From NCBI GenBank assembly GCA_964016885.1, contig OZ024741.1, forward strand, positions 114,948,001 through 115,012,000: a stretch of DNA of 64,000 nucleotides. Reading direction: 5' to 3'. This stretch comes from Eledone cirrhosa. Lineage: Eukaryota. The position numbers and the translations under genes are program-made. Positions 5,560 through 49,169 of this stretch are shown here, piece by piece (position 1 is the stretch's first letter; every line of letters begins with the position of its first letter). The notes beneath the pieces are model-generated. The model was not told where the DNA came from. It searched no databases and was given only the letters and a program-made list of their open reading frames with translations.

Positions 5560-5798
5560 CGAATATAGACATATATACACACATAGATATACATATATAT
5601 ATACATATACACACACACACACACACACTCACATATATATGTGCGCACACGTACATATATACACATACACACATATACACGTAAACACATACATGTGCAT
5701 ACATGCACATACACACATATACCCACATAGATACGAAGATAGACATATAAATAGAGAGACATACATATATATACACACACATATATACATACATACAT

Positions 5799-5863
<65 letters not shown>

Positions 5864-6684
5864 CACACATACACGCCCACACACATATACACATATACAT
5901 ATATATATACATACACACATACACATACACATATATATACACATGCATATATACACATATATATATATACATACACACATATATATACACACAATCTTAC
6001 ATTCTTATTTGCATGCGCATATATGTATTTTTATATTCAGATATAAATACCCAAACATATATACACCTACCTACATATATATTCATACATACACGCTTAC
6101 AAACACAGATGATAATAGTATGGGGGAAAGGGGGGGGGTTGGAGAAGGGGATTATAGTAAATATATGTTTCAAGAAACATAGAATATTATCTGTATCTGG
6201 ATCCAATGTATGTTTTTACATAGTTTCAGTGTTAGGAAATACAAGAAATAAGGCAAAATTTATGCATTTCAAAATAAATAAGTATACCATTAATTATATG
6301 TTAACTAAACTAAAGATAGTTAACATATTGATTTCTAAGGTGTAAATTAGTTAGGTTTATAATATTTGAAGCAGAATTTTGAAGTTAAATAGTAGTAGAG
6401 TATTAATTATAGTATAACTAAATTAAAGTTAATAACGTTATGGTATCAATATTAGGAAATGAATTTAGTAATAGGGAAAAAACAAATAAAGTATTACATC
6501 GGTAGTAGAATATAAATTATAGGTTAACTAAATTAAAAATTATATATTAATTTCTATAGTATATGTTAATTAGGTATATAATAAATAAAACAGATATTGT
6601 ATTTTATCAATAGCAGAATATAATTATATGCAAATAGAAATCAAAATTAATACATATACATATACATATACATACACACATATA

Positions 6685-6744
<60 letters not shown>

Positions 6745-9384: not shown

Positions 9385-9404
9385 AAAGAGCCACCCCTTA
9401 TCAA
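7233..9404 (-). CDS. PLE reverse transcriptase + GIY-YIG endonuclease (5'-truncated, frame uninterrupted; GLYRDD-type RT, tentatively Nematis-like)
   Basis: SDKTGNLY, RLICPSKSDIG, QFDI..YY, DITMGSSDSAQITDLVG, GLYRDD, FLDITL, CNC..CPL..C, IVYKC, YIG, FKTR; first ~7 codons come from the inverted arm. Confidence 0.92.
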   Translation of the reverse strand: MIRGGSFDSTLLDLKKSKKIHVHSDKTGNLYHMDIEHYNEFIYKELRKNYKKSNNASLTNINNKTHNIVKKLNIEDRTEPFALKRPHFNLKDHKSNFNSNPSIRLICPSKSDIGIISKKILDRVIPQIRKHVILPLWENTSQVINWFKNIRCKSSASFLQFDIDNYYSSISPILLNKALIFAKNRSNLTLDDINIITHARLTLIEFQNEYWTRNTYSNLFDITMGSSDSAQITDLVGLFLLFNINASFPHLKGGLYRDDCLLLSNNLSLSEIEKNKKHIRTFLKDYYNLHITFEKTSKVVNFLDITLDLATGIYQPYHKPNQNLHYIHSQSNHPKSILKNLAYNISLRISNLSSNQDVFDKNATFYNEALDRSGHKNRLEYIPSTKNTKSIQPNITNKHQMKSTHLNATHTIPQNTKSSNIKYSNSQKTTHHTTLININNKTPNKKDKTPKSTNITKNGCGEIININPPSKHHDTTYKNNKNNKQHRNRNRRVTWYNAPFNLQIKDNIAKKIFYILEKNFPPNHKYHQILNRSTVKFSYSTTNNIKQNISAYNAYKCKKTISIPPVHQINHNISSNTELTKGCNCRNKANCPLKGNCLVNNIVYKCNVKTKDSICSYIGATSNNFKTRFNTHKHSFRNAALANTTSLAEKINSYKNKNIEYDLTWSVLKRATPYQNNRNECRLCSQELFEIMKSKDILLNKRQELIISCNHKLKKTFKYYKPN

Positions 9405-10110: not shown

Positions 10111-10917
10111 ATGTATATGTATATGTATATGTATTAATTTTGATTTCTATTTGCATATAATTATATTCTGCTATTGATAAAATACAATATCTGTTTTATT
10201 TATTATATACCTAATTAACATATACTATAGAAATTAATATATAATTTTTAATTTAGTTAACCTATAATTTATATTCTACTACCGATGTAATACTTTATTT
10301 GTTTTTTCCCTATTACTAAATTCATTTCCTAATATTGATACCATAACGTTATTAACTTTAATTTAGTTATACTATAATTAATACTCTACTACTATTTAAC
10401 TTCAAAATTCTGCTTCAAATATTATAAACCTAACTAATTTACACCTTAGAAATCAATATGTTAACTATCTTTAGTTTAGTTAACATATAATTAATGGTAT
10501 ACTTATTTATTTTGAAATGCATAAATTTTGCCTTATTTCTTGTATTTCCTAACACTGAAACTATGTAAAAACATACATTGGATCCAGATACAGATAATAT
10601 TCTATGTTTCTTGAAACATATATTTACTATAATCCCCTTCTCCAACCCCCCCCTTTCCCCCATACTATTATCATCTGTGTTTGTAAGCGTGTATGTATGA
10701 ATATATATGTAGGTAGGTGTATATATGTTTGGGTATTTATATCTGAATATAAAAATACATATATGCGCATGCAAATAAGAATGTAAGATTGTGTGTATAT
10801 ATATGTGTGTATGTATATATATATGTGTATATATGCATGTGTATATATATGTGTATGTGTATGTGTGTATGTATATATATATGTATATGTGTATATGTGT
10901 GTGGGCGTGTATGTGTG

Positions 10918-10956
<39 letters not shown>

Positions 10957-11195
10957 ATGTATGTATGTATATATGTGTGTGTATATATATGTATGTCTCT
11001 CTATTTATATGTCTATCTTCGTATCTATGTGGGTATATGTGTGTATGTGCATGTATGCACATGTATGTGTTTACGTGTATATGTGTGTATGTGTATATAT
11101 GTACGTGTGCGCACATATATATGTGAGTGTGTGTGTGGGTGTGTGTATATGTATATATATATGTATATCTATGTGTGTATATATGTCTATATTCG

Positions 11196-11238
<43 letters not shown>

Positions 11239-11445
11239 TATTATTATAATATAACTTATGTGTATGTGTGTATATGTGAGGGTGTGTATATGTATATATA
11301 TGTGTATATATATGTGTAAAAAAATATATATGTGTATGTCTGTTTTTTGTGTGTGTGTATATATATGTATGTGTATATATATGTGTATATGTGTTTGTAT
11401 GTGTGTTTATGGTTGTATGTGTGTGTGGGTCTATATATATAAATG

Positions 11446-11476
<31 letters not shown>

Positions 11477-11807
11477 GTGTATATATATCTCTATTAATGT
11501 GTGTATATATGTATATGTATATGCCTTTTTCTTTGTATGTCTGAGTTGTGTGAGGGTGTAGTGGTGTTTGTATGTATATACGCATATATGGATGCGTATG
11601 TATTTGTATATATGAGTATATGTAAGTGCGTATGTATGTATGAATATATATCTAATTCTATGTATGAGTATATATGTGTGTGTATGTATGTTGTGTGTGT
11701 ATGTATGTATATTTCTATGTGTGTATATATATGTATATATGTGTGTGTATGTATGTATGTATGTGTATGTATGTACATATATGTCTATGTATGTGTGTAT
11801 GTATATG

Positions 11808-11854
<47 letters not shown>

Positions 11855-12364
11855 TTATTTTATATATATGTGTGTGTGTGTATATATATCTTTATATATG
11901 TGTATGTGTATGTTCGTGTAGGTGTATGTGTGTGTATGACTATATATGTATGTGTGTATGTGTGTATGTATGTATATGTATGTGTGTGTACATGTATGTA
12001 TGTGTATGTATGTATATGTGTGTATATGTGTATGTATATATATATATATATATATATGTGTATATATATATATATATATATGTATATGTATCTCTATTTG
12101 TATATGTATATGTGTATAGGTATATACCTTTTTCTTTGTATGTCTGAGTTGTGTGAGAGTGTAGTGGTGTTTGTATGTATATACCGATATATGGATGCGT
12201 AAGTATTTGTGTGTATGTATGTATGTATGTCTGTATGTATTTGTGTGTATATATAGGTATGTATGTGTATATCTGTATGTATATAAGTATGTATGTGTAT
12301 GTATATGTGCGTGTATGTGTGTATATATATGTGTGTCTATATAGTATGTGTGATTATATGTGTA

Positions 12365-12423
<59 letters not shown>

Positions 12424-12520
12424 GTATGTGTGTATATGTGTGTATGTGTGTATATGTATATGTTTATATATGTGTGTGTATGTATGTTCTAAGTGTGGAT
12501 GTGTGTATATGTATGTATGT

Positions 12521-12570
<50 letters not shown>

Positions 12571-13415
12571 ATATATATATATATTTTCTTGATATATTTC
12601 TTTTTTCTTTTTTCTTTTTCTTTTCTTTCCTTTTTAATTTTAATTTTTTATTTTCTTAGTTTATAGATACATCTATAATAAGCAGTCTGCCCAAACCGTT
12701 GAATACTGACCTCTCCCCCCCCTCCCACCTAATTTCTGTATCTTGATCTAAATGTGTGTGGCAGTGTTTATGTGAGTGAATTAATATCCATGTGCTTATG
12801 ATATCCACATATATATATATGTGAGTGGGGGTGTGTGTGTGTTTGTATGTTCGTAATTATGTGTATGTTTATGCATATACGCGCGCGTGTGTGTGATTGT
12901 ACGGATATGTGTGAGTATGAGAATATGTGTATACACTTATTTCATATTTATGTGTCTATACGCATCTTATCTGTGCATTATAAACTTACAGAGACATTAA
13001 CCTTGAAATGTTGTATTTGCATCCATCCTTTTGGTATGCGTATACATGTTGAGCATACATTTTTGTAAAATATGTGTAAGGGTAGTTACATGTATATACA
13101 CACACCGAACTGCATAAAACCTTTTGTATTTTCATTGGTCAATTTTGTTCCCAAACGGACCTGAAATTTTGAATTGTTGTTATTATCAATAAATATATTT
13201 AATTATTTCTGAAGACGGCGTATATATGTGTTGGTATGTATATTTAATCTTGATAGTTTGTATAATTTTGTATAATTTTGTACATAGATCTGTTGAATAT
13301 GCATACCAATTCTAACACATATATATCCTAGAAACGATCGTTAAATAATGAACTTTTTTTGTTTAATATAAGGAACTGTTTCATTGTTTTATTCATTATT
13401 TGTTTAATATTTTAT
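9384..13415 (+). mobile_element. inverted ~4 kb copy of the 3' end of the same PLE
   Basis: reverse complement of ~3324-7400; differs mainly in microsatellite lengths and a few SNPs. Confidence 0.95.
13202..13349 (+). ncRNA. type I hammerhead ribozyme
   Basis: ATTATTT-CTGAAGA(13209)-stem II-GAAA(13331)-CGATCG-TT-AAATAAT. Confidence 0.8.
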
Positions 13416-15858: not shown

Positions 15859-15910
<52 letters not shown>

Positions 15911-16032
15911 TATATATAAGTTGTAATAAAATGAAAACGAAATTTCATTTCTCACTCTTAGTACGGCACTTACTTAAATGTAAGTATGTATGTATACGTA
16001 CATACATATATGTATACAGACGTACAGTAGCA

Positions 16033-16097
<65 letters not shown>

Positions 16098-16101
<4 letters not shown>

Positions 16102-16128
16102 GACGTAAAATAAGAAAATATTTTTTTA

Positions 16129-16164
<36 letters not shown>

Positions 16165-16703
16165 TTTTCTTACTTAAATTTTCACTCCAACTAATTAGTT
16201 TCTGCAATGGGATAAAGACAGTTATGTAATCCAACTGTCGAGAATTCATTGCGTCATCAGGAAGTCTATTCTCAGTTAAGTCTCCAGGCAATGCGCGGAC
16301 ACTGGCGGCTCATATAAAAATAATAATAATTCGGTAGATCGAACAGCTTGCGAGGACTGAATTCTATGTACCGAAATTCTCACTGCTTCAAGTCAAATGG
16401 CCGATTCTAAAGAATCAATCACGTGACACAGAGGCTAGTTAGAAGGAATGGGATGGTAAGATGACTGACGCCTACTAACACCCCAAAAAAAAAATTTTTT
16501 TAGAAGTGGTTTTGACAAGTTTGCTCGACAAATCAGTGATTTGGAGATAAATATAGATAATTTAATATATCAACTAACATAAGCGCACATATGCACGCCC
16601 ATGCCAGCAAATACACAGGTTATGTCATAGTACCTAGGTGGTTCAATGCAGGAGAATGCAGAACAATAATATAAAGGACGTAAAATAAGAAAATATTTTT
16701 TTA

Positions 16704-16735
<32 letters not shown>

Positions 16736-18157
16736 TGTTTTTCTTACTTAAATTTTCACTCCAACTAATTAGTTTCTGCAATGGGATAAAGACAGTTATG
16801 TAATCCAACTGTCGAGAATTCATTGCGTCATCAGGAAGTCTATTCTCAGTTAAGTCTCCAGGCAATGCGCGGACACTGGCGGCTCATATAAAAATAATAA
16901 TAATTCGGTAGATCGAACAGCTTGCGAGGACTGAATTCTATGTACCGAAATTCTCACTGCTTCAAGTCAAATGGCCGATTCTAAAGAATCAATCACGTGT
17001 TTTTTTTTTTTTTTTTATTTTTTTTTTTTTTTTTTAAATTTTTTTAAAAAAATATTTTCTTATTTTACGTCCTTTATATTATTGTTCTGCATTCTCCTGC
17101 ATTGAACCACCTAGGTACTATGACATAACCTGTGTATTTGCTGGCATGGGCGTGCATATGTGCGCTTATGTTAGTTGATATATTAAATTATCTATATTTA
17201 TCTCCAAATCACTGATTTGTCGAGCAAACTTGTCAAAACCACTTCTAAAAAAATTTTTTTTTGGGGTGTTAGTAGGCGTCAGTCATCTTACCATCCCATT
17301 CCTTCTAACTAGCCTCTGTGTCACGTGATTGATTCTTTAGAATCGGCCATTTGACTTGAAGCAGTGAGAATTTCGGTACATAGAATTCAGTCCTCGCAAG
17401 CTGTTCGATCTACCGAATTATTATTATTTTTATATGAGCCGCCAGTGTCCGCGCATTGCCTGGAGACTTAACTGAGAATAGACTTCCTGATGACGCAATG
17501 AATTCTCGACAGTTGGATTACATAACTGTCTTTATCCCATTGCAGAAACTAATTAGTTGGAGTGAAAATTTAAGTAAGAAAAACATTTTTTTTTTTTTTT
17601 TTTTTTAAATTTTTTTAAAAAAATATTTTCTTATTTTACGTCCTTTATATTATTGTTCTGCATTCTCCTGCATTGAACCACCTAGGTACTATGACATAAC
17701 CTGTGTATTTGCTGGCATGGGCGTGCATATGTGCGCTTATGTTAGTTGATATATTAAATTATCTATATTTATCTCCAAATCACTGATTTGTCGAGCAAAC
17801 TTGTCAAAACCACTTCTAAAAAAATTTTTTTTTTGGGGTGTTAGTAGGCGTCAGTCATCTTACCATCCCATTCCTTCTAACTAGCCTCTGTGTCACGTGA
17901 TTGATTCTTTAGAATCGGCCATTTGACTTGAAGCAGTGAGAATTTCGGTACATAGAATTCAGTCCTCGCAAGCTGTTCGATCTACCGAATTATTATTATT
18001 TTTATATGAGCCGCCAGTGTCCGCGCATTGCCTGGAGACTTAACTGAGAATAGACTTCCTGATGACGCAATGAATTCTCGACAGTTGGATTACATAACTG
18101 TCTTTATCCCATTGCAGAAACTAATTAGTTGGAGTGAAAATTTAAGTAAGAAAAACA

Positions 18158-18191
<34 letters not shown>

Positions 18192-20049
18192 TAAAAAAAT
18201 ATTTTCTTATTTTACGTCCTTTATATTATTGTTCTGCATTCTCCTGCATTGAACCACCTAGGTACTATGACATAACCTGTGTATTTGCTGGCATGGGCGT
18301 GCATATGTGCGCTTATGTTAGTTGATATATTAAATTATCTATATTTATCTCCAAATCACTGATTTGTCGAGCAAACTTGTCAAAACCACTTCTAAAAAAA
18401 TTTTTTTTTGGGGTGTTAGTAGGCGTCAGTCATCTTACCATCCCATTCCTTCTAACTAGCCTCTGTGTCACGTGATTGATTCTTTAGAATCGGCCATTTG
18501 ACTTGAAGCAGTGAGAATTTCGGTACATAGAATTCAGTCCTCGCAAGCTGTTCGATCTACCGAATTATTATTATTTTTATATGAGCCGCCAGTGTCCGCG
18601 CATTGCCTGGAGACTTAACTGAGAATAGACTTCCTGATGACGCAATGAATTCTCGACAGTTGGATTACATAACTGTCTTTATCCCATTGCAGAAACTAAT
18701 TAGTTGGAGTGAAAATTTAAGTAAGAAAAACATTTTTTTTTTTTTTTTTTTTTAAATTTTTTTAAAAAAATATTTTCTTATTTTACGTCCTTTATATTAT
18801 TGTTCTGCATTCTCCTGCATTGAACCACCTAGGTACTATGACATAACCTGTGTATTTGCTGGCATGGGCGTGCATATGTGCGCTTATGTTAGTTGATATA
18901 TTAAATTATCTATATTTATCTCCAAATCACTGATTTGTCGAGCAAACTTGTCAAAACCACTTCTAAAAAAATTTTTTTTTGGGGTGTTAGTAGGCGTCAG
19001 TCATCTTACCATCCCATTCCTTCTAACTAGCCTCTGTGTCACGTGATTGATTCTTTAGAATCGGCCATTTGACTTGAAGCAGTGAGAATTTCGGTACATA
19101 GAATTCAGTCCTCGCAAGCTGTTCGATCTACCGAATTATTATTATTTTTATATGAGCCGCCAGTGTCCGCGCATTGCCTGGAGACTTAACTGAGAATAGA
19201 CTTCCTGATGACGCAATGAATTCTCGACAGTTGGATTACATAACTGTCTTTATCCCATTGCAGAAACTAATTAGTTGGAGTGAAAATTTAAGTAAGAAAA
19301 ACATTTTTTTTTTTTTTTTTTTTAAATTTTTTTAAAAAAATATTTTCTTATTTTACGTCCTTTATATTATTGTTCTGCATTCTCCTGCATTGAACCACCT
19401 AGGTACTATGACATAACCTGTGTATTTGCTGGCATGGGCGTGCATATGTGCGCTTATGTTAGTTGATATATTAAATTATCTATATTTATCTCCAAATCAC
19501 TGATTTGTCGAGCAAACTTGTCAAAACCACTTCTAAAAAAATTTTTTTTTTGGGGTGTTAGTAGGCGTCAGTCATCTTACCATCCCATTCCTTCTAACTA
19601 GCCTCTGTGTCACGTGATTGATTCTTTAGAATCGGCCATTTGACTTGAAGCAGTGAGAATTTCGGTACATAGAATTCAGTCCTCGCAAGCTGTTCGATCT
19701 ACCGAATTATTATTATTTTTATATGAGCCGCCAGTGTCCGCGCATTGCCTGGAGACTTAACTGAGAATAGACTTCCTGATGACGCAATGAATTCTCGACA
19801 GTTGGATTACATAACTGTCTTTATCCCATTGCAGAAACTAATTAGTTGGAGTGAAAATTTAAGTAAGAAAAACATTTTTTTTTTTTTTTTTTTTAAATTT
19901 TTTTAAAAAAATATTTTCTTATTTTACGTCCTTTATATTATTGTTCTGCATTCTCCTGCATTGAACCACCTAGGTACTATGACATAACCTGTGTATTTGC
20001 TGGCATGGGCGTGCATATGTGCGCTTATGTTAGTTGATATATTAAATTA

Positions 20050-20056
<7 letters not shown>
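16098..20056. repeat. inverted tandem array of ~571-575 bp units, one HHR per unit (retrozyme-like)
   Basis: left arm 16098-16998 (HHR on - at 16184-16265, 16758-16839); right arm ~17000-20056 (HHR on + starting 17482, 18054, 18629, 19200, 19771); copies appear to differ only in homopolymer length. Confidence 0.93.
17482..17563 (+). ncRNA. type I hammerhead ribozyme (representative of 7 copies)
   Basis: ACTTC-CTGATGA-cGCAATG..GACAGTT/AACTGTC..CATTGCa-GAAA-CTAATTAG-TT-GGAGT. Confidence 0.88.
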
Positions 20057-20093
<37 letters not shown>

Positions 20094-20501
20094 CAGGTAC
20101 ACATACATATATGTACGTATCAGTTTAGCGGACGCTTATTATAGCGCCCGCTTTGTTCGTTTGTAAACAAACTGAACAGCCTGAATTTATGCCGTACGGT
20201 GTTAAGGCAACCACGTCACCTTTTTGTTCAACACTGACACAGGAACGATGTACTAGTTTAAAGCTTGTTAGCTATCATCAGCACCGTATACCCTTCTGCC
20301 AGTATATACTTTTCTCATGAAAATTAACGGCTGAGCAGCCTAATTTGCATATGGAGTGAGTTCGGCCAGGCGTACCGAGAACGATAAGTTGTAATAAAAT
20401 GAAAACGAAATTTCATTTCTCACCTCTTAGTACGGCACTTACTTAAATGTAAGTATCTATGTATACGTACATACATATATGTATACAGACGTACAGTAGC
20501 A

Positions 20502-20644
<143 letters not shown>

Positions 20645-20819
20645 CAGGTACACATACATATATGTACGTATCAGTTTAGCGGGCGCTTATTATAGCGCCC
20701 GCTTTGTTCGTTTGTAAACAAACTGAACAGCCTGAATTCATGCCGTACGGTGTTAAGGCAACCACGCTATAATAAGCGTCCGCTAAACTGATACGTACAT
20801 ATATGTATGTGTACCTGTA

Positions 20820-20869
<50 letters not shown>

Positions 20870-20919
20870 TGCTACTGTACGTCTGTATACATATATGTAT
20901 GTACGTATACATACATACT

Positions 20920-20970
<51 letters not shown>

Positions 20971-20974
<4 letters not shown>

Positions 20975-21420
20975 ACTAGAAATTGATTAACATATATATA
21001 AACATGAATAATCACAGGAGATAATTTTTACAAGTGTGTAACCACACATAGCTAGGTAGGTAACTAAATAAAGTTGACCAGAACTTCAATAATAGATACC
21101 TTATATACCATCCGATTAATTGGTGAAATATATATCTTTAATGGAATATATACAGGGAAGATTAATCATATTATAAGGTATCTATTTTTGAAGTTCTGGT
21201 CAACTTTATTTAGTTACCTACCTAGCTATGTGTGGTTACACACTTGTAAAAATTATCTCCTGTGATTATTCATCTTTATTTATATGTTAATCAATTTCTA
21301 GGTATTATAAAATGCTCGGACTTACTCGTTAGAATCTTAGAGCTTATTTTCCGGGTGATATGGCGCATGTCTTTCTGGCATGACACCCATAATTTTGATT
21401 TAGATTAAATTCATTTAATT
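20971..21420. repeat. non-coding repeat with internal inversion; same family as 36410-37056
   Basis: 20971-21098 is the reverse complement of ~21177-21307. Confidence 0.75.
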
Positions 21421-23180: not shown

Positions 23181-23182
23181 TA

Positions 23183-23240
<58 letters not shown>

Positions 23241-23246
23241 GTTATG

Positions 23247-23278
<32 letters not shown>

Positions 23279-23321
23279 TATAGTTATATATATATATATA
23301 TAGTTATATATATGTATATAT

Positions 23322-26300
23322 ATGTATACATATATGTATGTACGTATACATGCATACTTACATTTAAGTAAGTGCCATACTAAGAGTGAGAAATGAAATT
23401 TCGTTTTCATTTTGTTTCAATTTATCGTTTTCGGTATGCCTGACCGATTTAACTCACTCAATATGCAAATTAGGCTGCTCAGCCTTAATTTTCATAAGGA
23501 AAGTATATACTTTCGAACGTTCAACTATCTGGCAGATGGGTAAACGGTGCTGATGATAGCTAACAAGCTTGAAACTAGTACATCGTTCCTGTGTCAGTGT
23601 TGAACAAAAAGGTGACGTGGTTGCCTTAACACCGTATGGCATAAATTCAGGCTGTTCAGTTTGTTTACAAACGAACAAAGCGACGTTATAATAAGCGCCG
23701 CTAAACTGATACGTGCATATATGTATGTGTACCTGTATGCATATGTATGTATATATATATATATATATATGTGCATGCTACTGTACGTCTGTATACATAT
23801 ATGTATGTACGTATACATGCATACTTACATTTAAGTAAGTGCCATACTAAGAGTGAGAAATGAAATTTCGTTTTCATTTTGTTTCAATTTATCGTTTTCG
23901 GTATGCCTGACCGATTTAACTCACTCAATATGCAAATTAGGCTGCTCAGCCTTAATTTTCATAAGGAAAGTATATACTTTCGAACGTTCAACTATCTGGC
24001 AGATGGGTAAACGGTGCTGATGATAGCTAACAAGCTTGAAACTAGTACATCGTTCCTGTGTCAGTGTTGAACAAAAAGGTGACGTGGTTGCCTTAACACC
24101 GTATGGCATAAATTCAGGCTGTTCAGTTTGTTTACAAACGAACAAAGCGACGTTATAATAAGCGCCGCTAAACTGATACGTGCATATATGTATGTGTACC
24201 TGTATGCATATGTATGTATATATGTATATATATATATATATGTGCATGCTACTGTACGTCTGTATACATATATGTATGTACGTATCCATGCATACTTACA
24301 TTTAAGTAAGTGCCATACTAAGAGTGAGAAATGAAATTTCGTTTTCATTTTGTTTCAATTTATCGTTTTCGGTATGCCTGACCGATTTAACTCACTCAAT
24401 ATGCAAATTAGGCTGCTCAGCCTTAATTTTCATAAGGAAAGTATATACTTTCGAACGTTCAACTATCTGGCAGATGGGTAAACGGTGCTGATGATAGCTA
24501 ACAAGCTTGAAACTAGTACATCGTTCCTGTGTCAGTGTTGAATAAAAAGGTGACGTGGTTGCCTTAACACCGTATGGCATAAATTCAGGCTGTTCAGTTT
24601 GTTTACAAACGAACAAAGCGACGTTATAATAAGCGCCGCTAAACTGATACGTGCATATATGTATGTGTACCTGTATGCATATATATGTATATATGTATAT
24701 ATATATATATATGTGCATGCTACTGTACGTCTGTATACATATATGTATGTACGTATACATGCATACTTACTTTTAAGTAAGTGCCATACTAAGAGTGAGA
24801 AATGAAATTTCGTTTTCATTTTGTTTCAATTTATCGTTTTCGGTATGCCTGACCGATTTAACTCACTCAATATGCAAATTAGGCTGCTCAGCCTTAATTT
24901 TCATAAGGAAAGTATATACTTTCGAACGTTCAACTATCTGGCAGATGGGTAAACGGTGCTGATGATAACTAACAAGCTTGAAACTAGTACATCGTTCCTG
25001 TGTCAGTGTTGAACAAAAAAGTGACGTGGTTGCCTTAACACCGTATGGCATAAATTCAGGCTGTTCAGTTTGTTTACAAACGAACAAAGCGACGTTATAA
25101 TAAGCGCCACTAAACTGATACGTGCATATATGTATGTGTACCTGTATGCATATGTATGTATATATATATATATATATATGTGCATGCTACTGTACGTCTG
25201 TATACATATATGTATGTACGTATACATGCATACTTACATTTAAGTAAGTGCCATACTAAGAGTGAGAAATGAAATTTCGTTTTCATTTTGTTTCAATTTA
25301 TCGTTTTCGGTATGCCTGACCGATTTAACTCACTCAATATGCAAATTAGGCTGCTCAGCCTTAATTTTCATAAGGAAAGTATATACTTTCGAACGTTCAA
25401 CTATCTGGCAGATGGGTAAACGGTGCTGATGATAACTAACAAGCTTGAAACTAGTACATCGTTCCTGTGTCAGTGTTGAACAAAAAAGTGACGTGGTTGC
25501 CTTAACACCGTATGGCATAAATTCAGGCTGTTCAGTTTGTTTACAAACGAACAAAGCGACGTTATAATAAGCGCCACTAAACTGATACGTGCATATATGT
25601 ATGTGTACCTGTATGCATATGTATGTATATATATATATATATATATGTGCATGCTACTGTACGTCTGTATACATATATGTATGTACGTATACATGCATAC
25701 TTACATTTAAGTAAGTGCCATACTAAGAGTGAGAAATGAAATTTCGTTTTCATTTTGTTTCAATTTATCGTTTTCGGTATGCCTGACCGATTTAACTCAC
25801 TCAATATGCAAATTAGGCTGCTCAGCCTTAATTTTCATAAGGAAAGTATATACTTTCGAACGTTCAACTATCTGGCAGATGGGTAAACGGTGCTGATGAT
25901 AGCTAACAAGCTTGAAACTAGTACATCGTTCCTGTGTCAGTGTTGAACAAAAAGGTGACGTGGTTGCCTTAACACCGTATGGCATAAATTCAGGCTGTTC
26001 AGTTTGTTTACAAACGAACAAAGCGACGTTATAATAAGCGCCGCTAAACTGATACGTGCATATATGTATGTGTACCTGTATGCATATGTATGTATATATA
26101 TATATATATATATGTGCATGCTACTGTACGTCTGTATACATATATGTATGTACGTATACATGCATACTTACATTTAAGTAAGTGCCATACTAAGAGTGAG
26201 AAATGAAATTTCGTTTTCATTTTGTTTCAATTTATCGTTTTCGGTATGCCTGACCGATTTAACTCACTCAATATGCAAATTAGGCTGCTCAGCCTTAATT

Positions 26301-27181
26301 TTCATAAGGAAAGTATATACTTTCGAACGTTCAACTATCTGGCAGATGGGTAAACGGTGCTGATGATAGCTAACAAGCTTGAAACTAGTACATCGTTCCT
26401 GTGTCAGTGTTGAACAAAAAGGTGACGTGGTTGCCTTAACACCGTATGGCATAAATTCAGGCTGTTCAGTTTGTTTACAAACGAACAAAGCGACGTTATA
26501 ATAAGCGCCGCTAAACTGATACGTGCATATATGTATGTGTACCTGTATGCATATGTATGTATATATGTATATATATATATATATATGTGCATGCTACTGT
26601 ACGTCTGTATACATATATGTATGTACGTATCCATGCATACTTACATTTAAGTAAGTGCCATACTAAGAGTGAGAAATGAAATTTCGTTTTCATTTTGTTT
26701 CAATTTATCGTTTTCGGTATGCCTGACCGATTTAACTCACTCAATATGCAAATTAGGCTGCTCAGCCTTAATTTTCATAAGGAAAGTATATACTTTCGAA
26801 CGTTCAACTATCTGGCAGATGGGTAAACGGTGCTGATGATAGCTAACAAGCTTGAAACTAGTACATCGTTCCTGTGTCAGTGTTGAATAAAAAGGTGACG
26901 TGGTTGCCTTAACACCGTATGGCATAAATTCAGGCTGTTCAGTTTGTTTACAAACGAACAAAGCGACGTTATAATAAGCGCCGCTAAACTGATACGTGCA
27001 TATATGTATGTGTACCTGTATGCATATGTATGTATATATGTATATATATATATATATATGTGCATGCTACTGTACGTCTGTATACATATATGTATGTACG
27101 TATACATGCATACTTACATTTAAGTAAGTGCCATACTAAGAGTGAGAAATGAAATTTCGTTTTCATTTTGTTTCAATTTAT
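23322..27181 (+). repeat. tandem array of ~8.2 units of 467-473 bp, one minimal HHR per unit (retrozyme-like)
   Basis: HHRs start at 23543, 24010, 24481, 24952, 25419, 25886, 26353, 26826. Confidence 0.95.
23543..23587 (+). ncRNA. minimal type I hammerhead ribozyme (representative of 8 copies)
   Basis: AACGGTG-CTGATGA-tAGCT AACA AGCTt-GAAA-CTAG-TA-CATCGTT. Confidence 0.9.
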
Positions 27182-27229
27182 ATATATATACTTTTATATA
27201 TATATATATATATAGTTGTATATATATAG

Positions 27230-27264
<35 letters not shown>

Positions 27265-27275
27265 TATATATATAG

Positions 27276-27410
<135 letters not shown>

Positions 27411-27438
27411 TATATATATGTATATATATATATATATA

Positions 27439-27502
<64 letters not shown>

Positions 27503-27693
27503 TATATATATATATATAGTTATATATATATATATATATAGTTATATATATATATATATATATATATATGTAGGAGGTGAGTTTTATTGTAGTACAATAA
27601 AGCAATGCAGATATCGGATAAGAAGCACTCTACAGTTTGTGGGACTGGAGTATGCATAATATAAGATCTAAAGATGGTTAAAGGAGTTCCATA

Positions 27694-27798: not shown

Positions 27799-29703
27799 AT
27801 GTCAAAACTTGGCATTGAAAAAAAGACCGAACCATTCCTCCCAAGAACTCCGAGGATAAATCTCAAGGATCACAAAAGCAATTTTCGCACTGAACTACCT
27901 GTTAGATTAATCGCCCCCTCTAAATCTGATCTAGGGGTTGTTAGTAAAGCCATCTTGGATAGGATTATCCCACAGGTTAGTTCTAATTGCTCTTATTTAA
28001 ACCTAAATTTATGGTTTGGTACTTCTGAAGTGATTGGCTGGTTCAACAAATTGGATAATAAAAACAAACTAAAATTTATTCAATTCGATATTGCCAGCTA
28101 CTATTCCTCCATTTCGCCTTCACTTCTCAATAATGCTCTATCTTTCGCACTTAAATATTCTGACATCACCACAGATGAACTTCACATCATCCTCACCGCA
28201 CGTAAAACCATCCTAGAGTTCAACAACGAATATTGGACCAGAGCCGATACCTCTAACAACTTCGACATCACAATGGGAGCATCCGATTCATCCCAAATGA
28301 CTGATTTAATTGGTATCTTCATTTTGAACTCTTTGAGTCGGAAAATTCCTCAACTTCGCGGTGGAATTTATCGTGACGATGGACTCTTTACTATCCTAAA
28401 TTGCAATATAGTTAAACTTAATATTATTAAGAACAATATACGTAATCTCTTTAACCAACATAACCTAAAAATTGAATTTGATAATAGTATCAAACTAGCT
28501 AATTTCTTGGATGTATCTCTTAATCTTGACACTGGCCTATATTACCCTTACCATAAAAACAATGAGAATCTTAATTATGTTAACTTTAAATCTAACCATC
28601 CTACCAATATCAAGAATGCTATAGTTAATAATATTGGAAATAGAATATCTAACATATCTTCTAATAAAAACATCTTTGATGCTAACGCCAATTACTATAA
28701 TAACGCACTTTCTAAAGCCGGCTATCCAGATAAAATCAAATATAATAAAGAAACAAATTCTAGGAAAACTTACAGTAGAATAATTAATCTTGACCATTCC
28801 AATAATTTTAATAAAAGACCTAGATACAAAAACATAATCTGGTATAATGCTCCTTTCTCCATCTCTATTAATAACAATATTCCTAAATTATTTTTTAATG
28901 CCTTAAATAAATGCTTCCCTCCCTCACATATCTATAGTAAAATATTTAACAAACACACCATCAAATTTTCGTATTCTACATCCTCCAATATTTCCAACAT
29001 CATCTCTAAACACAACAACAAAATATTAAATACTAAATCTCTTCCTTCCAATATTGAATTTCATAATAACAGTAATAGTACTCCCGACGTCATTGTAAAC
29101 CCTAGGCTAACTTCTGTAAACCCAAATACAACGTCAAACACAACTTCGCTAAATGTTCATAATCCAACTCTAAATCAAGAAACTATTATTCCTATTATTC
29201 CTATCGCAAACAACTTCTCCAATCCAATTCCTTCTATAGATAACACTAGATCACTCATTAATAATCTCTCTAATTGCAACTGCCGCATTAAAAATAAATG
29301 TCCTCTCAACAACCATTGCCTCGATAAAAACTTAATTTATGAATGTAAAATTATAACTAGCACCAATTCCTTCACCTATTTTGGCTCCACTTCCACCTGT
29401 TTTAAAGCTCGTCTCTATAATCATCATTCATCTTTCAAATACAAACTTAAAAGAACTAACACTGCTCTCTCAGAACTCACATGGTCCTTAAAAGACAAAA
29501 ACATTAAATATAACATCTTTTGGAAAAAGATTTCTTCTGCATCCTCATACTTGAACAGCTCTCTATCTAAAATCTGTAATCTCTGCCTAAATGAAAAATT
29601 TACCATTATCTCTAACCTAGAATCTATAATAAATAGACGCTCAGATTTGTTTTCTATCTGCCTGCATACATTCCATAGAACTTTTCACAAAGTATACAGT
29701 TAA
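27799..29703 (+). CDS. PLE RT + GIY-YIG endonuclease (5'-truncated, frame uninterrupted)
   Basis: RLIAPSKSDLG, QFDIASYY, DITMGASDSSQMTDLIG, GIYRDDGL, SNHP, CNC..CPL..C, LIYEC, YFG, FKARL. Confidence 0.92.
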   Translation: MSKLGIEKKTEPFLPRTPRINLKDHKSNFRTELPVRLIAPSKSDLGVVSKAILDRIIPQVSSNCSYLNLNLWFGTSEVIGWFNKLDNKNKLKFIQFDIASYYSSISPSLLNNALSFALKYSDITTDELHIILTARKTILEFNNEYWTRADTSNNFDITMGASDSSQMTDLIGIFILNSLSRKIPQLRGGIYRDDGLFTILNCNIVKLNIIKNNIRNLFNQHNLKIEFDNSIKLANFLDVSLNLDTGLYYPYHKNNENLNYVNFKSNHPTNIKNAIVNNIGNRISNISSNKNIFDANANYYNNALSKAGYPDKIKYNKETNSRKTYSRIINLDHSNNFNKRPRYKNIIWYNAPFSISINNNIPKLFFNALNKCFPPSHIYSKIFNKHTIKFSYSTSSNISNIISKHNNKILNTKSLPSNIEFHNNSNSTPDVIVNPRLTSVNPNTTSNTTSLNVHNPTLNQETIIPIIPIANNFSNPIPSIDNTRSLINNLSNCNCRIKNKCPLNNHCLDKNLIYECKIITSTNSFTYFGSTSTCFKARLYNHHSSFKYKLKRTNTALSELTWSLKDKNIKYNIFWKKISSASSYLNSSLSKICNLCLNEKFTIISNLESIINRRSDLFSICLHTFHRTFHKVYS

Positions 29704-43712: not shown

Positions 43713-43787
43713 TTATATATATATATATAGTTATATATATATATATAGTTATATATATATATAGTTATATATATATATATATATATA

Positions 43788-44525
43788 TAAACGGAAAAAA
43801 TGAAACGAAATTTCATTTCCCTTCTTAGTACGGCTGTTACTTAAATATAAGTATGTACACGTACATATATATATGTATACAGACGCACAGAAGTATGTAT
43901 ATATATATACATACATGCACACATATATATATGTACGTATGGATTCACCGAACATCCATTACAATGTTCGGTGTGTTTGTAACCCGTAGTGTCTAGCAAC
44001 CATCGTTGCTCGTTTGTTCAACACTGACAAAGGAACGCTGTACTAGTTTCAAACTCATTAGCTATCGTCAGCAACGTATACCTTCCTGCCAGATTGTTGA
44101 ACATATATACTTACCTTATGCATATTAACGACTGAGTAGCCCAATTTGCATATCGAGTGGATTAATCGGCCGGGTGCACCAAAAACGATAAACGGAAAAA
44201 ATGAAACGAAATTTCATTTCCCACTCTTAGTATGGCTGTTACTTAAATATAAGTATGTACACGTACATACATATATGTATATAGACGCACATGCAAGCAT
44301 AAGGTAAGTATATACGTTCAACAATCTGGCAGGAAGTTATACGTTGCTGACGATAACTAATAAGCTTGAAACTAGTACAGCGTTCCTCTGTCACTGTTGA
44401 ACAAACGAGCAACGATGGTTGCTAGACACTACGGTTTAATACGGGATGTTTGTTTACAAACACACCGAGCATTGTAATAGATGTTTGGTGAATCCATACG
44501 TACATATATATATGTGTGGATGTAT
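43788..44525. repeat. diverged relative of the 470-bp family, inverted arrangement, HHRs at ~44035-44077 (-) and ~44341-44384 (+)
   Basis: ACGTTG-CTGACGA-..-GAAA-CTAG-TA-CAGCGT. Confidence 0.8.
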
Positions 44526-45874
44526 GTATATATATATACATACTACATTTTATATTTCGTTTCATTTAAACAAGATTTATTTTAAAAGATCGACACAGCT
44601 TCCATCACTTGTTGACCCCACATCATTTAGACAACAAATGTTATTACGAAAGAGGAATGGATTCTACATATGCCCTTAGCCTTTCATAAAAATATAGCAG
44701 GTCTTTACATATGGTTAACGCACCAGCAAGCGTTTTATGACCATTTCTCCTGCTAAAGTAAAAGTTAACAGCGCGGGACTCATGAAAGGTTTCATACTTA
44801 TCATTGAATCATTTTTGAGGCTATATTTTACGGCCAGATACCCTTTCTGTCTCTAACCCTTTTATGACACGCATAGAAACTGTATAGATATTCTTAAAAG
44901 GACACACAGAGCATATTTTAGATAGACACTATATGTTAATATAAGGGTGGTGGATTGGAACGAATGCTGCAAAGCATTCTATCCAACGTTCTAACGAATC
45001 TGCCAATTCACTGCGCCCACTCTTTACTATTAATATACTATAAGACTGGAGAGGCCAACCTTTTAGAAAGCATGTGTCCCCATTGGGTATAGTGTAGAAA
45101 GATTTCATTGCATGCCCGTTATCAATTTCGAGCCGCAGATTATCATTTTTATTATAATTGCAAATAAAGAAATCATTATAATTGCAACTTAATGGCTGTG
45201 GATTGACAGAGTCATTAGAACGTCGGAAAAACACTTCCGATGTCGATAAAATAAAGTAGCAGTGAAATACTGAGATCATTTAATCGACTTTCTTCTCCCA
45301 CCAAAATAACTGGCCTTGTGCCTAAATTAAAAATCCCTATACGTTAATACATATTTACCATCATCACGTGTTGAATCGAACAAACTACATTTTAATGTGT
45401 ACATTAACTACTGATTACCTTTATTAAACTCAAGCTTTTCCTCTCCTTTATAACTCAAATTCTGTAACGAAATATTCAAGGAAATGTTTAATGACTAGAT
45501 AATTACCGCCAGAATCATTCGTTTAAAATAAATAAAAAACCTAACTGTTACACGCTTGTTTTGATGTTTTATTCCAACGCAAGCAAATAAAATAACAAAT
45601 GAAAATAAATCGGTTAATGTAAACACGGAGACCGAAAGAATTAACAAGAGGCATCTACGCTAATTCAAATATAATTATCCAGTGTTTCAAATTTCCCGTT
45701 TCCCAAATGGTTCTTGACTCAACCGGATGTTTGCACTCACTTGCTACAGGCTTAACATCTTCCAAACTAGAGTAATGAACGGTCAGTGATTATTTATCAA
45801 TGATGGACAATGCACACACCCAGCATCAGATTCTTCGTAGGTACCTTTGCCCATTTTTGTCCGTTTCCAGTGGG

Positions 45875-48654: not shown

Positions 48655-49169
48655 TTGTGTGTGTTTGTGTGTCTATATATGTATGTTTTCATGCATGAAT
48701 GAATACACTAAGCTTTAGATTTAGTAGAATGTACAACCATTTATTCCAGCTATTACGTTTGTATACATATATGTATGTACGTATACATACTTATATTTAA
48801 GTATCAGCCGTACTAAGAGTGAGAAATGAAATTTCATTTTTTCCATATATATATATATGTGTATATATAAATACAAAGTGTTAAAACGATCAAATTTTAG
48901 TTTAGAACATTTATTAGCTGACAATTGTTTCTTCCAGAGGGAAGTCTGGAATCATCGGAGCATAAGGAATGTCGAAAACGTGTAACTAGAATCCTAGCCA
49001 TTTAGAACATTTAGGGTACATAGTTGTTAATAGCGTCAAAGGCATCATGTGGAGATTCAGGAGTTAAAAAGATATATATATATATATATATATATATCTA
49101 TAGCACTGACGGAGACCATCACTAATTATTAACATCGATGTAGTTTTTTATATCGATATTGCATGGGCA

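What the first reader, a model, noticed from the sequence alone, without database searches (positions are those of the whole stretch)
23322..27181. Eight-copy 470-bp minimal-hammerhead array that carries its own (TA)n target
Each unit has a 45-nt HHR plus an internal TA/TG microsatellite. Relatives lie at 15918-20922, 43788-44525 and ~48760-48845. Stem I covaries between subfamilies (ACGGTG/CATCGT vs ACGTTG/CAGCGT, G-U to U-G) and N7 varies (CTGATGA vs CTGACGA), which argues for selection on the fold.
Basis: partly seen in the sequence, partly recalled or inferred. Interest (0 to 1): 0.75.

Follow-up and report, generated by a model that had tools for sequence, protein, structure and literature searches.

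The report
Hammerhead retrozyme array with Penelope footprints
This 467-base repeat, with a hammerhead self-cutting RNA motif in every copy, is one ordinary insertion of a very abundant non-coding mobile element that was likely written into TA-repeat DNA by Penelope-type retrotransposon enzymes; it is a new member of a known class and not a new kind of system.

Summary
Window 23323-27181 is an 8.2-copy, 467-bp tandem array (99% matches), and every unit carries a 43-nt minimal type I hammerhead (HHR) and an internal TA/TG microsatellite.

It is not a local oddity. The same HHR occurs 10,974 times in this 3.0-Gb animal genome. A sister type with stem I U-G occurs 7,452 times.

In 61 sampled loci, 99 of 113 copy arms end at only two sites, 59 nt apart (R471 and about R412). 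All 29 resolved head-to-head double arrays pair one end of each kind, and 28 of 42 outer flanks are (TA)n. These are the published marks of Penelope-like element (PLE) insertion: partial tandems, an inverted 5'-truncated copy, a one-sided tail, and a microsatellite target. Intact PLEs with the same (TA)n/tail architecture exist in this genome.

I therefore read it as an animal non-LTR retrozyme, likely PLE-mobilised.

- Stem I covariation is real but amounts to about two or three events.
- The "own (TA)n target" idea is partly right. The internal microsatellite is hit by other elements in 5 cases, and that is not how the array grew.
- RNA, cleavage and circles remain untested, because no RNA run was available.

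The scan had already found this family elsewhere in the same genome.

The parts
23323..27181 (+). Tandem array, 8 full units plus a terminal partial unit. It starts 5'-truncated at unit position R369 and ends at the fixed 3' terminus R471 (..CAATTTAT).
   Evidence: TRF. blastn map in unit coordinates. Unit starts (R1) at 23426, 23893, 24364, 24835, 25302, 25769, 26236 and 26709.
23544..23586 (+). Hammerhead 1 (43 nt). Predicted cleavage after A23580 (GUA|C).
   Evidence: Core aligned by the Rfam HH9 model.
24011..24053 (+). Hammerhead 2
24482..24524 (+). Hammerhead 3
24953..24995 (+). Hammerhead 4, with a stem II G>A change (one A-C mismatch)
25420..25462 (+). Hammerhead 5, same stem II G>A change
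25887..25929 (+). Hammerhead 6
26354..26396 (+). Hammerhead 7
26827..26869 (+). Hammerhead 8
23518..23612 (+). Extended stem I domain of unit 1. About 23 pairs (GTTCAAC..ACGGTG with CATCGT..GTTGAAC) close the hammerhead. The same stretch recurs in every unit.
   Evidence: MFE fold. Pair counts on 36 sequences.
23750..23769 (.). Pure (TA)10 core of the unit-internal TA/TG microsatellite (unit positions about R301-352). Further cores start at 24225, 24696, 25159, 25626, 26093, 26568 and 27041.
   Evidence: Spacer lengths 48, 52, 52, 48, 48, 48, 54, 54 read.
27123..27181 (+). 59-nt tail (R413-471) at the array's 3' end. It holds the hairpin AAATGAAA/TTTCATTT and ends in CAATTTAT.
23181..23322 (.). 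Left (TA)n flank (target tract)
27182..27569 (.). Right (TA)n flank (target tract)
15916..16034 (-). Terminal segment A (R353-471) of a related two-armed insertion, with its R471 terminus abutting (TA)n. It is cut off from the rest of its arm by a 3.9-kb insert in its microsatellite.
16099..20036 (.). Foreign 3.9-kb element: repeats spaced about 573 bp in two opposed orientations, with inverted ends. It sits inside the retrozyme's internal (TA)n.
20104..20766 (-). Rest of the minus arm of that insertion (B, A, an expanded (AT)70, then B R191-300). Its hammerhead is dead (GAAA>TAAA).
20767..20927 (+). Opposed plus arm, ending at the no-tail terminus (R412, ..CTTACAT) next to (TA)n
43787..44291 (-). 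Minus arm of a diverged (75-85%) two-armed copy, with its R471-type terminus at 43787. Its hammerhead at 44009-44103 has N7=C and stem I ACGTTG/CAGCGT.
44298..44545 (+). Opposed plus arm of that copy, carrying a hammerhead with N7=C. The right limit is approximate.
48754..48840 (+). Solo segment A fragment (R363-453) ending next to (TA)n

Best explanation
The array is one insertion of a non-coding, hammerhead-bearing retroelement family (an animal 'non-LTR retrozyme') that was likely copied into a (TA)n tract by the reverse transcriptase and GIY-YIG endonuclease of Penelope-like elements.

Shown directly:
- the 467-bp units
- the 43-nt hammerhead core in each unit
- the genome-wide dispersal
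- the two fixed 3' termini 59 nt apart
- the strict pairing of one terminus of each kind in head-to-head double arrays
- the (TA)n flanks
- the presence of intact PLEs with the same target and a one-sided tail

Inferred model:
1. Arrays are transcribed.
2. The hammerhead, whose helix III is a single A-U pair capped by the palindrome CUAG, would cleave after GUA, mainly when two motifs pair through ACUAGU (the double-hammerhead model).
3. Monomers would be ligated into highly structured circles of about 470 nt.
4. A PLE enzyme would nick (TA)n and start cDNA synthesis at two AUUUA sites: sharply at R470/471, more loosely at R409-416. One start occurs from each side of the break.
5. The enzyme would run round the template several times, which gives tandem units.

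The window's own array shows only one arm and a higher-order unit pattern (1=6, 2~7, 3~8, 4=5). It was therefore either reshaped after insertion or copied from a mixed multimer.
For: Family size: 10,974 exact copies of this HHR with its stem I (reversed-pattern control 0), 15,827 of the N7=C type (control 1), and 7,452 with stem I U-G. A whole-unit search gave at least 250 matches on many chromosomes.

Ends: in 61 loci (20 + 40 genomic loci plus the window) I mapped 113 arms. The 3' ends fall at R460-471 in 52, at R404-417 in 47, and elsewhere in 14. Of 40 head-to-head pairs, 29 combine one end of each kind, none combine two of the same kind, and 11 are unresolved. 5' ends are scattered.

Target: 28 of 42 outer flanks are at least 50% (TA)n, against 91 of 1001 background tiles in the window.

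One template per event: all 12 of 12 (L010) and 16 of 16 (L014) units are identical over segment B, with the same microsatellite length. In 5 of 7 testable double arrays the commonest unit is the same in both arms.

PLE hallmarks as published (passages of PMC8557442): partial tandems, an inverted 5'-truncated copy, a tail at only one end, (TA)n bias, and HHRs in pLTRs.

PLEs in this genome: the GIY-YIG search gave 10,595 first-look candidates, and 150 of 150 scored ones pass the cut-off. L034 holds an open 938-aa RT + CX5CxxC + GIY-YIG frame. Its family ends in a 62-nt tail abutting (TA)n in 3 copies (L034, L044 left arm, L106) and ends without the tail at the L044 right end.

HHR: all core positions are present. 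The Rfam HH9 model aligns stems I and II, CUGAUGA, GAAAC and the GUA site. On 36 sequences 97.0% of cells are paired, and 3 pairs show changes on both sides.

RNA fold: circular monomer MFE -158.9 kcal/mol, against -105.2 +/- 5.3 for 60 shuffles, z about -10.

Class match: tandem units of 150-450 bp with a type I HHR, low GC (unit 36%), and no LTR/PBS/PPT, as described for metazoan retrozymes (PMC7229834 passages). The link between retrozymes and PLE pLTRs is made in the abstract and section 14 of preprint 10.64898/2026.07.22.740005.
Against: - No RNA evidence of any kind. Transcription, cleavage and circles are all inferred.
- The Rfam score is 18.5 bits against a gathering score of 52, and no family reaches its gathering score anywhere in the window.
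- The HHR has a U-U at the base of stem II and a one-pair helix III, so monomer cleavage is predicted to be poor. Two of the 8 motifs here also carry a stem II mismatch.
- No autonomous partner is identified by sequence. The 3' end of the one PLE family examined is not significantly like the retrozyme's 3' end (score 24; 8 of 300 shuffles reach it). None of 26 PLE loci shares segment A or the tail beyond TA-rich matches.
- 5' ends do not clearly cluster at the cleavage site. About 5-6 of roughly 85 arms lie within about 9 nt of R155|156, so there is no firm genomic footprint of cleavage.
- The window's array is single-armed and internally heterogeneous, unlike what one monomeric circle would give.
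- Covariation rests on few independent events.
- The HHR flanks are no better conserved than other parts of the unit.
- A LINE family in this genome also ends at (TA)n.
Confidence: 0.75

Rival explanations
1. LINE-mobilised, SINE-like element. A LINE with an APE endonuclease and RT that ends at (TA)n would prime on the RNA from a nicked TA tract, and twin priming would give the inverted arms.
For: A LINE (Exo_endo_phos_2 + RVT_1) at window 57150-61331 ends 86 nt before a (TA)n tract, and the same family in L072 also abuts (TA)n. LINE RT frames lie within 700 nt of retrozyme arms in 3 of the 40 loci (L072, L093, L094).
Against: Priming by (TA)n on the RNA would be expected in the internal (UA)n, yet 99 of 113 arms end 60 or 119 nt downstream of it. 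There is no poly(A) and no shared LINE 3' tail. The strict unlike-end rule (29 of 29 resolved pairs) and the one-sided tail are described for PLEs, not for twin priming. The adjacency is explained by the shared (TA)n target.
Confidence: 0.08
2. Ordinary satellite DNA that spreads by unequal crossing-over and segmental duplication. The hammerhead would be a non-functional relic.
For: The window's array has a higher-order pattern (1=6, 2~7, 3~8, 4=5) typical of unequal exchange. No RNA evidence exists. Two of the 8 motifs are weakened.
Against: There are thousands of dispersed insertions on all large contigs, with fixed 3' termini, variable 5' truncation, opposed arms with unlike ends, and (TA)n flanks. 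The paired stem I states number at least 18,426 copies, against 299 mismatched recombinants.
Confidence: 0.05
3. Helitron-like rolling-circle DNA transposon that carries or generates tandem units and inserts at A-T dinucleotides.
For: TA target, a hairpin about 15 nt before the 3' end, and tandem units.
Against: There is no fixed 5' end (5' ends are scattered) and no 5'-TC or CTRR-3' terminus (the ends are ..CAATTTAT and ..CTTACAT; the Helitron features are recalled). Two alternative 3' termini and opposed arms are not Helitron features. No Rep/helicase was sought or seen.
Confidence: 0.03
4. One reading: the unit carries its own (TA)n as a target or homing site, so that the family inserts into itself and builds arrays that way.
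For: The unit has (TA)8-10, and family insertions lie in (TA)n. The internal tract is hit by foreign elements in 5 cases, about 28 times denser per base than the rest of the unit by my rough count.
Against: Array units join R471 to R1 seamlessly, and array ends are not in the microsatellite. Of 238 internal microsatellites, 212 are 80 nt or less, 24 are TA-rich expansions, 2 hold foreign DNA, and none holds a recognisable copy of the family. My chaining would miss some nested cases.
Confidence: 0.07

Closest known systems
Metazoan non-LTR retrozymes (Cervera and de la Pena 2020, PMC7229834; abstract and passages seen)
   Same: [quoted passage not shown] Low GC. No LTR, PBS or PPT. Thousands of copies. 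Predicted highly self-paired monomer RNA.
   Different: The unit (467 bp) is above the 150-450 bp range given for the repeats and above the circRNA range of about 170-400 nt. Each unit holds a TA/TG microsatellite, and that word occurs 0 times in the paper. Expression and circularity are shown there but are untested here.
Amphibian hammerheads: newt satellite 2 type and axolotl HHR_Amex1/Amex2 (described in PMC7229834)
   Same: Helix III is reduced to a single pair capped by a palindromic tetraloop (here A-U with CUAG), as in Amex1. There is a U-U mismatch at the base of helix II, as in Amex2. A dimeric action is expected.
   Different: The sequence is unrelated, the host group is different (I did not establish the taxon), and no cleavage data exist here.
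Penelope-like elements and their pLTR hammerheads (Craig et al. 2021, PMC8557442, passages seen; Cervera and de la Pena 2014 as cited there)
   Same: Partial tandems, an inverted 5'-truncated copy, a tail at only one end, a (TA)n insertion bias, and a minimal type I hammerhead.
   Different: No ORF. The tail is 59 nt here, against the 30-40 bp given in the paper. Arms hold up to 16 whole units. No sequence link to a coding PLE was found.
Vertebrate non-LTR retrozymes as non-autonomous PLE derivatives (Li, Clavereau and Pollet 2026, bioRxiv 10.64898/2026.07.22.740005; abstract and section 14 seen)
   Same: The same proposal: the retrozyme is a PLE passenger. PLEs and retrozymes co-occur.
   Different: Their link is homology to pLTRs in Xenopus. 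Here the link is insertion architecture only.
Plant LTR retrozymes (Cervera et al. 2016, PMC4918200; search listing only)
   Same: A non-autonomous retroelement with hammerheads, proposed to spread through circular RNA.
   Different: According to the description in PMC7229834, plants have type III hammerheads inside LTRs, a PBS, a PPT and 4-bp duplications. None of these is present here.

Membership tests
Hammerhead ribozyme, type I (Rfam clan CL00010) | Conserved core CUGANGA ... GAAA with a non-G at position 17 after U16.1 | tested here: met
   CUGAUGA, GAAA, A15.1 and GUA|C are present in 8 of 8 units. The HH9 model aligns them.
Hammerhead ribozyme, type I (Rfam clan CL00010) | Three helices around the core. 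Helix I is open, and II and III are closed. | tested here: inconclusive
   Helix I has 6 pairs, extendable to about 23. Helix II has 4 pairs plus a U-U. Helix III has only one A-U pair with a CUAG loop, or 6 pairs if two motifs pair through ACUAGU.
Hammerhead ribozyme, type I (Rfam clan CL00010) | Score at or above the Rfam gathering threshold | tested here: not met
   There are 0 matches at gathering score in the window. The best match is Hammerhead_HH9 at 18.5 bits against 52.
Hammerhead ribozyme, type I (Rfam clan CL00010) | Covariation that keeps the helices | tested here: inconclusive
   On 36 sequences, 3 of 27 pairs change on both sides. The covariation score is 0.118 against 0.074 in shuffles (0 of 500 reach it), and slid controls give 0.009-0.030. 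Few events are independent, and 20 of the 36 rows came from pattern-picked loci. Genome counts: G-U at least 10,974, U-G 7,452, G-G 66, U-U 233.
Hammerhead ribozyme, type I (Rfam clan CL00010) | Self-cleavage | not testable with these tools
   This needs transcription assays of monomer and dimer constructs.
Metazoan non-LTR retrozyme | Type I hammerhead in every unit of a short tandem repeat, in multiple dispersed copies, with low GC | tested here: met
   Unit GC is 36%.
Metazoan non-LTR retrozyme | No LTR, PBS, PPT or coding capacity | tested here: met
   No ORF of 80 aa or more at 15900-21000. A stop-free antisense frame of 124-141 aa per unit has no conservation in the sister family. The unit is a plain repeat. 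PBS and PPT were not searched for by model.
Metazoan non-LTR retrozyme | Expressed as linear and circular monomer RNA | not testable with these tools
   No RNA holder was listed.
PLE-type insertion (non-autonomous PLE derivative) | 5' truncation, partial tandems, and an adjacent inverted 5'-truncated copy | tested here: met
   40 head-to-head pairs in 61 loci, with scattered 5' ends. The window's own array shows one arm only.
PLE-type insertion (non-autonomous PLE derivative) | Extension (tail) present at only one end of the insertion | tested here: met
   29 of 29 resolved pairs have one R471 end (with the 59-nt tail) and one R412 end.
PLE-type insertion (non-autonomous PLE derivative) | Microsatellite target | tested here: met
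   28 of 42 flanks are (TA)n-rich, against 9% of background tiles.
PLE-type insertion (non-autonomous PLE derivative) | Sequence homology to the pLTR or 3' end of a coding PLE | tested here: not met
   26 PLE loci gave only TA-rich matches. The PLE family of L034/L044 compared with R353-471 is not significant. Only a small sample of the genome's PLE families was examined.
PLE-type insertion (non-autonomous PLE derivative) | Coding PLEs present in the same genome | tested here: met
Helitron | Fixed 5'-TC and CTRR-3' ends with a subterminal hairpin, inserted at A-T (features recalled) | tested here: not met
   A hairpin and a TA target are present. The 5' ends are variable and the 3' ends are CAATTTAT or CTTACAT.

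The most novel reading that the evidence does not exclude
Two Penelope-type reverse transcriptases, one on each side of a staggered break in (TA)n, start at two AUUUA sites 59 nt apart on one small circular hammerhead RNA and run round it up to 16 times. The strict unlike-end rule (29 of 29) and the unit-perfect arrays would then be a genome-scale footprint of both the unknown PLE integration mechanism and rolling-circle reverse transcription of a ribozyme circle in an animal. The Neptune-like 938-aa PLE of L034 is the candidate driver.
Probability: 0.3. Interest if true: 0.7.

Novelty: new member of a known kind. Interest (0 to 1): 0.42.

Why it matters
How animal retrozymes are copied back into DNA is an open question, and so is how Penelope-like elements integrate at all. 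The passages I read in PMC8557442 call for an in vitro system to explain the tandem/inverted structures and the microsatellite bias.

This family is young, very abundant and non-coding, and its two start sites are precisely mappable. The rule that double arrays always pair unlike ends makes concrete predictions for such an assay.

For the window itself the result is mostly annotation. The array is a normal member of that family and not a new system.

Tried and rejected
- RNA evidence: no RNA holder was listed for the unit. The four runs laid were contigs of unrecorded kind. They show many sequence variants of the family (6332, 0, 28 and 106 contigs laid) and nothing about expression, strand or ends.
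- Rfam at gathering score: no match. At the E-value threshold the microsatellite gives many sub-threshold miRNA-like hairpin matches, which I discard as low-complexity palindromes.
- Autonomous partner: I looked for a coding PLE inside 15900-21000 and found no ORF of 80 aa or more. I looked in 26 PLE loci for the retrozyme's 3' end and found only TA-rich matches; L043 and L044 merely have retrozyme copies nearby. The PLE tail compared with the retrozyme tail shares a 12-mer, which is not significant. Of 15 flanking frames of at least 223 aa scanned from 80 retrozyme loci, 3 are LINE RT, 1 is an APE-type endonuclease, and none is a PLE.
- Footprint of cleavage in 5' ends: L003 (R153), L012 (R154), L004/L013 (R159), L090 (R152) and L047 (R147), out of roughly 85 arms. 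This is too few to claim.
- Stronger conservation of the HHR domain than of the rest of the unit: not seen. Identities to the main family are 0.79 and 0.88 for the stem I flanks, 0.82 for R1-92, 0.83 for segment A and 0.64 for R188-300. The tail figure in that table is an artefact of fixed-length extraction.
- Coding potential of the antisense stop-free frame: not conserved.
- Cofold of two 46-nt HHR segments gives -21.9 kcal/mol, against 2 x -9.6 for monomers. This is a small gain and I do not lean on it.
- Literature: a six-term search was swamped by cephalopod papers. 'hammerhead ribozyme' with 'octopus' gave 5 papers (4 listed), and none of the listed titles or abstracts concerns such a family. 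I did not establish the taxon of the genome.
Full report
**1. The observation**

Tandem Repeats Finder reports 23323-27181 as 8.2 copies of a 467-bp unit with 99% matches and score 7462. The sequence shows the same.

A hammerhead core pattern (CTGANGA, 6-30 nt, GAAA) matches 13 times in the window against 1.46 expected, and 0 of 100 shuffles reach 13. Eight of the 13 matches lie in the array, one per unit.

The whole motif is 43 nt: ACGGTG, CTGATGA, TAGCTAACAAGCTT, GAAAC, TAGTA, CATCGT. Units 4 and 5 carry a G>A change that breaks one of the four stem II pairs.

Each unit also has a TA/TG-rich tract with a pure (TA)8-10 core.

**2. The hammerhead**

All core positions are present. Helix I has six pairs including a G-U. 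Helix II has four pairs above a U-U. After GAAA the sequence is C-UA-G-U-A|C.

Helix III is therefore a single A-U pair capped by the palindrome CUAG. Alternatively it is a six-pair helix if two motifs pair through ACUAGU.

This matches the features described for amphibian retrozyme hammerheads that cleave well only as dimers: a one-pair helix III with a palindromic tetraloop in HHR_Amex1, and a U-U at the base of helix II in HHR_Amex2 (PMC7229834, passages). The double-hammerhead model itself is recalled, not read here.

Rfam does not call the motif. No family reaches its gathering score in the window. The best match is Hammerhead_HH9 at 18.5 bits against 52. Its alignment places stems I and II, the core and the GUA site correctly and deletes helix III.

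The monomer RNA is predicted to be very structured. The circular MFE is -158.9 kcal/mol, against -105.2 +/- 5.3 for 60 dinucleotide shuffles. In that fold helix I extends to about 23 pairs and the TA/TG tract forms a long hairpin.

**3. It is a dispersed family, not a local satellite**

The window lies in a 3.0-Gb genome of 1796 contigs. A whole-unit search returned at least 250 matches on many contigs.

| Pattern | Exact matches | Reversed-pattern control |
|---|---|---|
| This HHR with its stem I (N7=T) | 10,974 | 0 |
| N7=C type | 15,827 | 1 |
| Stem I variant ACGTTG/CAGCGT | 7,452 | 0 |

**4. Anatomy of insertions**

I rotated the unit so that R1 follows ..CAATTTAT (R = window 23893-24363). 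In that frame:
- the hammerhead is at R119-161, with the cleavage site at R155|156
- the microsatellite is at about R301-352
- segment A is R353-471

I mapped segment B (R1-300) and segment A on 20 arrays taken, on 40 loci taken in order from the list, and on the window.

Results:
- Of 113 arms, 52 end at R460-471, 47 end at R404-417, and 14 end elsewhere. Most of the 14 are cases where an expanded or interrupted microsatellite broke my chaining.
- 5' ends are scattered.
- 40 insertions are head-to-head double arrays with the 3' ends outward. Of these, 29 pair one R471 end with one R412 end, none pairs like ends, and 11 are unresolved.
- The R471 junction is sharp (..CAATTTAT|(AT)n). The R412 junction wanders between R408 and R416.
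- Both sites sit at an AUUUA (ACAUUUA|AG and CAAUUUAU|CG).
- 28 of 42 outer flanks are at least half (TA)n. The same holds for only 91 of 1001 background tiles of the window.
- Young arrays are unit-perfect. All 12 of 12 (L010) and 16 of 16 (L014) segment B copies are identical, with one microsatellite length. In 5 of 7 testable double arrays the commonest unit is the same in both arms.

**5. What this matches**

Craig et al. 2021 (PMC8557442, passages read) describe PLE insertions as 5'-truncated and often in partial tandem. They often have an inverted 5'-truncated copy next to them and a 30-40-bp tail at only one end. They also show a microsatellite bias: (TA)n for Naiads, with the CX2-5CxxC linker suggested to mediate such a bias in Neptune.

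The retrozyme's 59-nt stretch R413-471 behaves as such a tail.

PLEs are abundant in this genome. The GIY-YIG search gave 10,595 first-look candidates, and 150 of 150 scored ones pass the Pfam cut-off.

[quoted passage not shown] Its family ends with a 62-nt tail against (TA)n in L034, in the left arm of L044 and in L106. It ends without the tail at the right end of the L044 double structure. The same target and the same one-sided tail are thus seen on a coding PLE in this genome.

Cervera and de la Pena 2020 define metazoan non-LTR retrozymes by features that fit here: tandem units of 150-450 bp, a type I HHR, low GC, and no LTR/PBS/PPT. Li et al. 2026 argue that they are non-autonomous PLE derivatives.

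**6. What is not shown**

- No RNA run was available. The laid contigs say nothing on expression. Transcription, cleavage, ligation and a circular template are all inference.
- I found no sequence link between the retrozyme's 3' end and any of the 26 PLE loci fetched, so the driver is a candidate only.
- 5' ends near the cleavage site are too few to count as a footprint of cut RNA (L003, L012, L004/L013, L090, L047).
- The unit-perfect arrays favour repeated copying of one monomer. A homogeneous multimeric transcript or later homogenisation is not excluded.

**7. The window's own array**

It has one recognisable arm. The 5' end is at R369, inside the TA-rich start of segment A. The 3' end is at R471 with the tail. 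It lies between (TA)n tracts.

Its units fall in a higher-order pattern: 1=6, 2~7, 3~8 and 4=5, with microsatellite spacers of 48, 52, 52, 48, 48, 48, 54 and 54. It was therefore reshaped by unequal exchange after insertion, or copied from a mixed multimer.

**8.

On 36 distinct sequences of the 95-nt hammerhead domain, 97.0% of cells are paired. Five 5'-truncated rows of the 41 found were left out, and 20 of the 36 rows came from loci picked by an exact HHR pattern.

| Pair (alignment columns) | Pair types observed |
|---|---|
| 30-66 | GU 21, UG 9, AU 2, CG 1, UA 1, unpaired 2 |
| 20-74 | AU 15, UG 15, unpaired 6 |
| 8-82 | CG 26, UG 9, UA 1 |

The covariation score is 0.118 against 0.074 in shuffles (0 of 500 reach it). 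With slid partners it is 0.009-0.030.

The two mismatched combinations number 66 and 233, mostly scattered single copies.

This fits selection for pairing in the lineages that amplify. It amounts to only two or three events, and related copies inflate the counts. The stem I flanks are no better conserved between the two main families than R1-92 or segment A.

**9.

The array did not grow through its internal tract, because units join R471 to R1 seamlessly. Of 238 internal microsatellites bracketed by consecutive B and A matches, 212 are 80 nt or less, 24 are TA-rich expansions (84-268 nt), and 2 hold foreign DNA (L068, L100).

Three further interrupted cases are:
- L067, a palindromic insert
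- L106, which holds the tail end of the L034/L044 PLE family
- the window's 16099-20036

The last is a 3.9-kb element with repeats spaced about 573 bp in two opposed orientations and with inverted ends. It splits the terminal unit of the related insertion 15916-20927. That insertion is itself a double array, with an R471 end at 15916 and an R412 end at 20927.

The tract is therefore a real landing site for (TA)n-seeking elements, but for other families.

**10. Rivals**

- A LINE family that also ends at (TA)n exists. It explains neither the two discrete start sites nor the unlike-end rule.
- A plain satellite does not explain dispersal with fixed ends.
- A Helitron does not fit the variable 5' ends and the termini.

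**11. Verdict**

This is a new member of a known kind, an animal non-LTR retrozyme with Penelope-type insertion marks. The scan had already reported the family, and its two ends 59 nt apart, on other pieces of the same genome. I reached the same reading from my own calls before that look-up.

Noticed in passing
window 16099-20036: A 3.9-kb non-coding element with repeats spaced about 573 bp in two opposed orientations and with inverted ends (AAGGACGTAAAATAAG.. / ..CTTATTTTACGTCCTT), plus about 105 nt extra on the right. Related pieces occur in L053 and L041. It holds a CTGATGA..ACAGTT stretch that resembles the minimal PLE hammerheads seen in L033, L038 and L042 but lacks GAAA.
   Followed up: partly
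window 57150-61331 (+) and L072:5602-7401 (-): A LINE with three open frames (390, 428 and 607 aa; Exo_endo_phos_2 and RVT_1). Its 3' end (..CAAAGTTAT) runs straight into a long (TA)n tract in both copies seen, so this may be a (TA)n-tailed or (TA)n-targeting LINE family.
   Followed up: partly
L034 (G000:C1:145867500-145877400), minus strand 4809-7622: An open 938-aa Neptune-like PLE frame (RVT_1, CGRSNCGTC linker, GIY-YIG) with direct repeats of about 1.06 kb on both sides (pLTRs). Its 3' end carries a 62-nt tail against (TA)n. My regular expression found no canonical hammerhead on its sense strand.
   Followed up: partly
L068:2329-2514: A 185-nt insert inside a retrozyme microsatellite. It consists of a perfect inverted repeat of about 52 nt per arm plus a one-sided extension, and looks like a very short two-armed PLE-type insertion.
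   Followed up: no
window 27799-29703 (+) and 7233-9404 (-): Open frames of 634 aa (230 nt beyond the array's right (TA)n flank) and 723 aa with no Pfam match. The second lies between mirror-image microsatellite-rich arms (4082-5991 and 10790-12654).
   Followed up: no
window 62550-63502: Two copies of a 483-bp tandem unit (98% matches), directly after a 1.1-kb (TA)n tract. It is unrelated to the retrozyme by my blastn.
   Followed up: no
every unit of the family, antisense strand (e.g. L014:8373-8795): A stop-free frame of 124-141 aa per unit on the strand opposite the hammerhead. It is partly made of the microsatellite and is not kept in the sister family (longest frames 58-130 aa, on either strand).
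   Followed up: yes
L093:1750-2830 and L094:2880-2930: Retrozyme insertions bordered by the (GAT)n-tailed 3' ends (..GGACGTAAAATGAT(GAT)n) of another RT-bearing element (RVT_1 + PHD). In L093 two such ends face each other across the retrozyme.
   Followed up: no
L004 and L013: Two double arrays on different contigs share the same inner junction (R159 joined to R448) but differ by one unit in one arm. This is either a segmental duplicate or a re-copied double structure.
   Followed up: no
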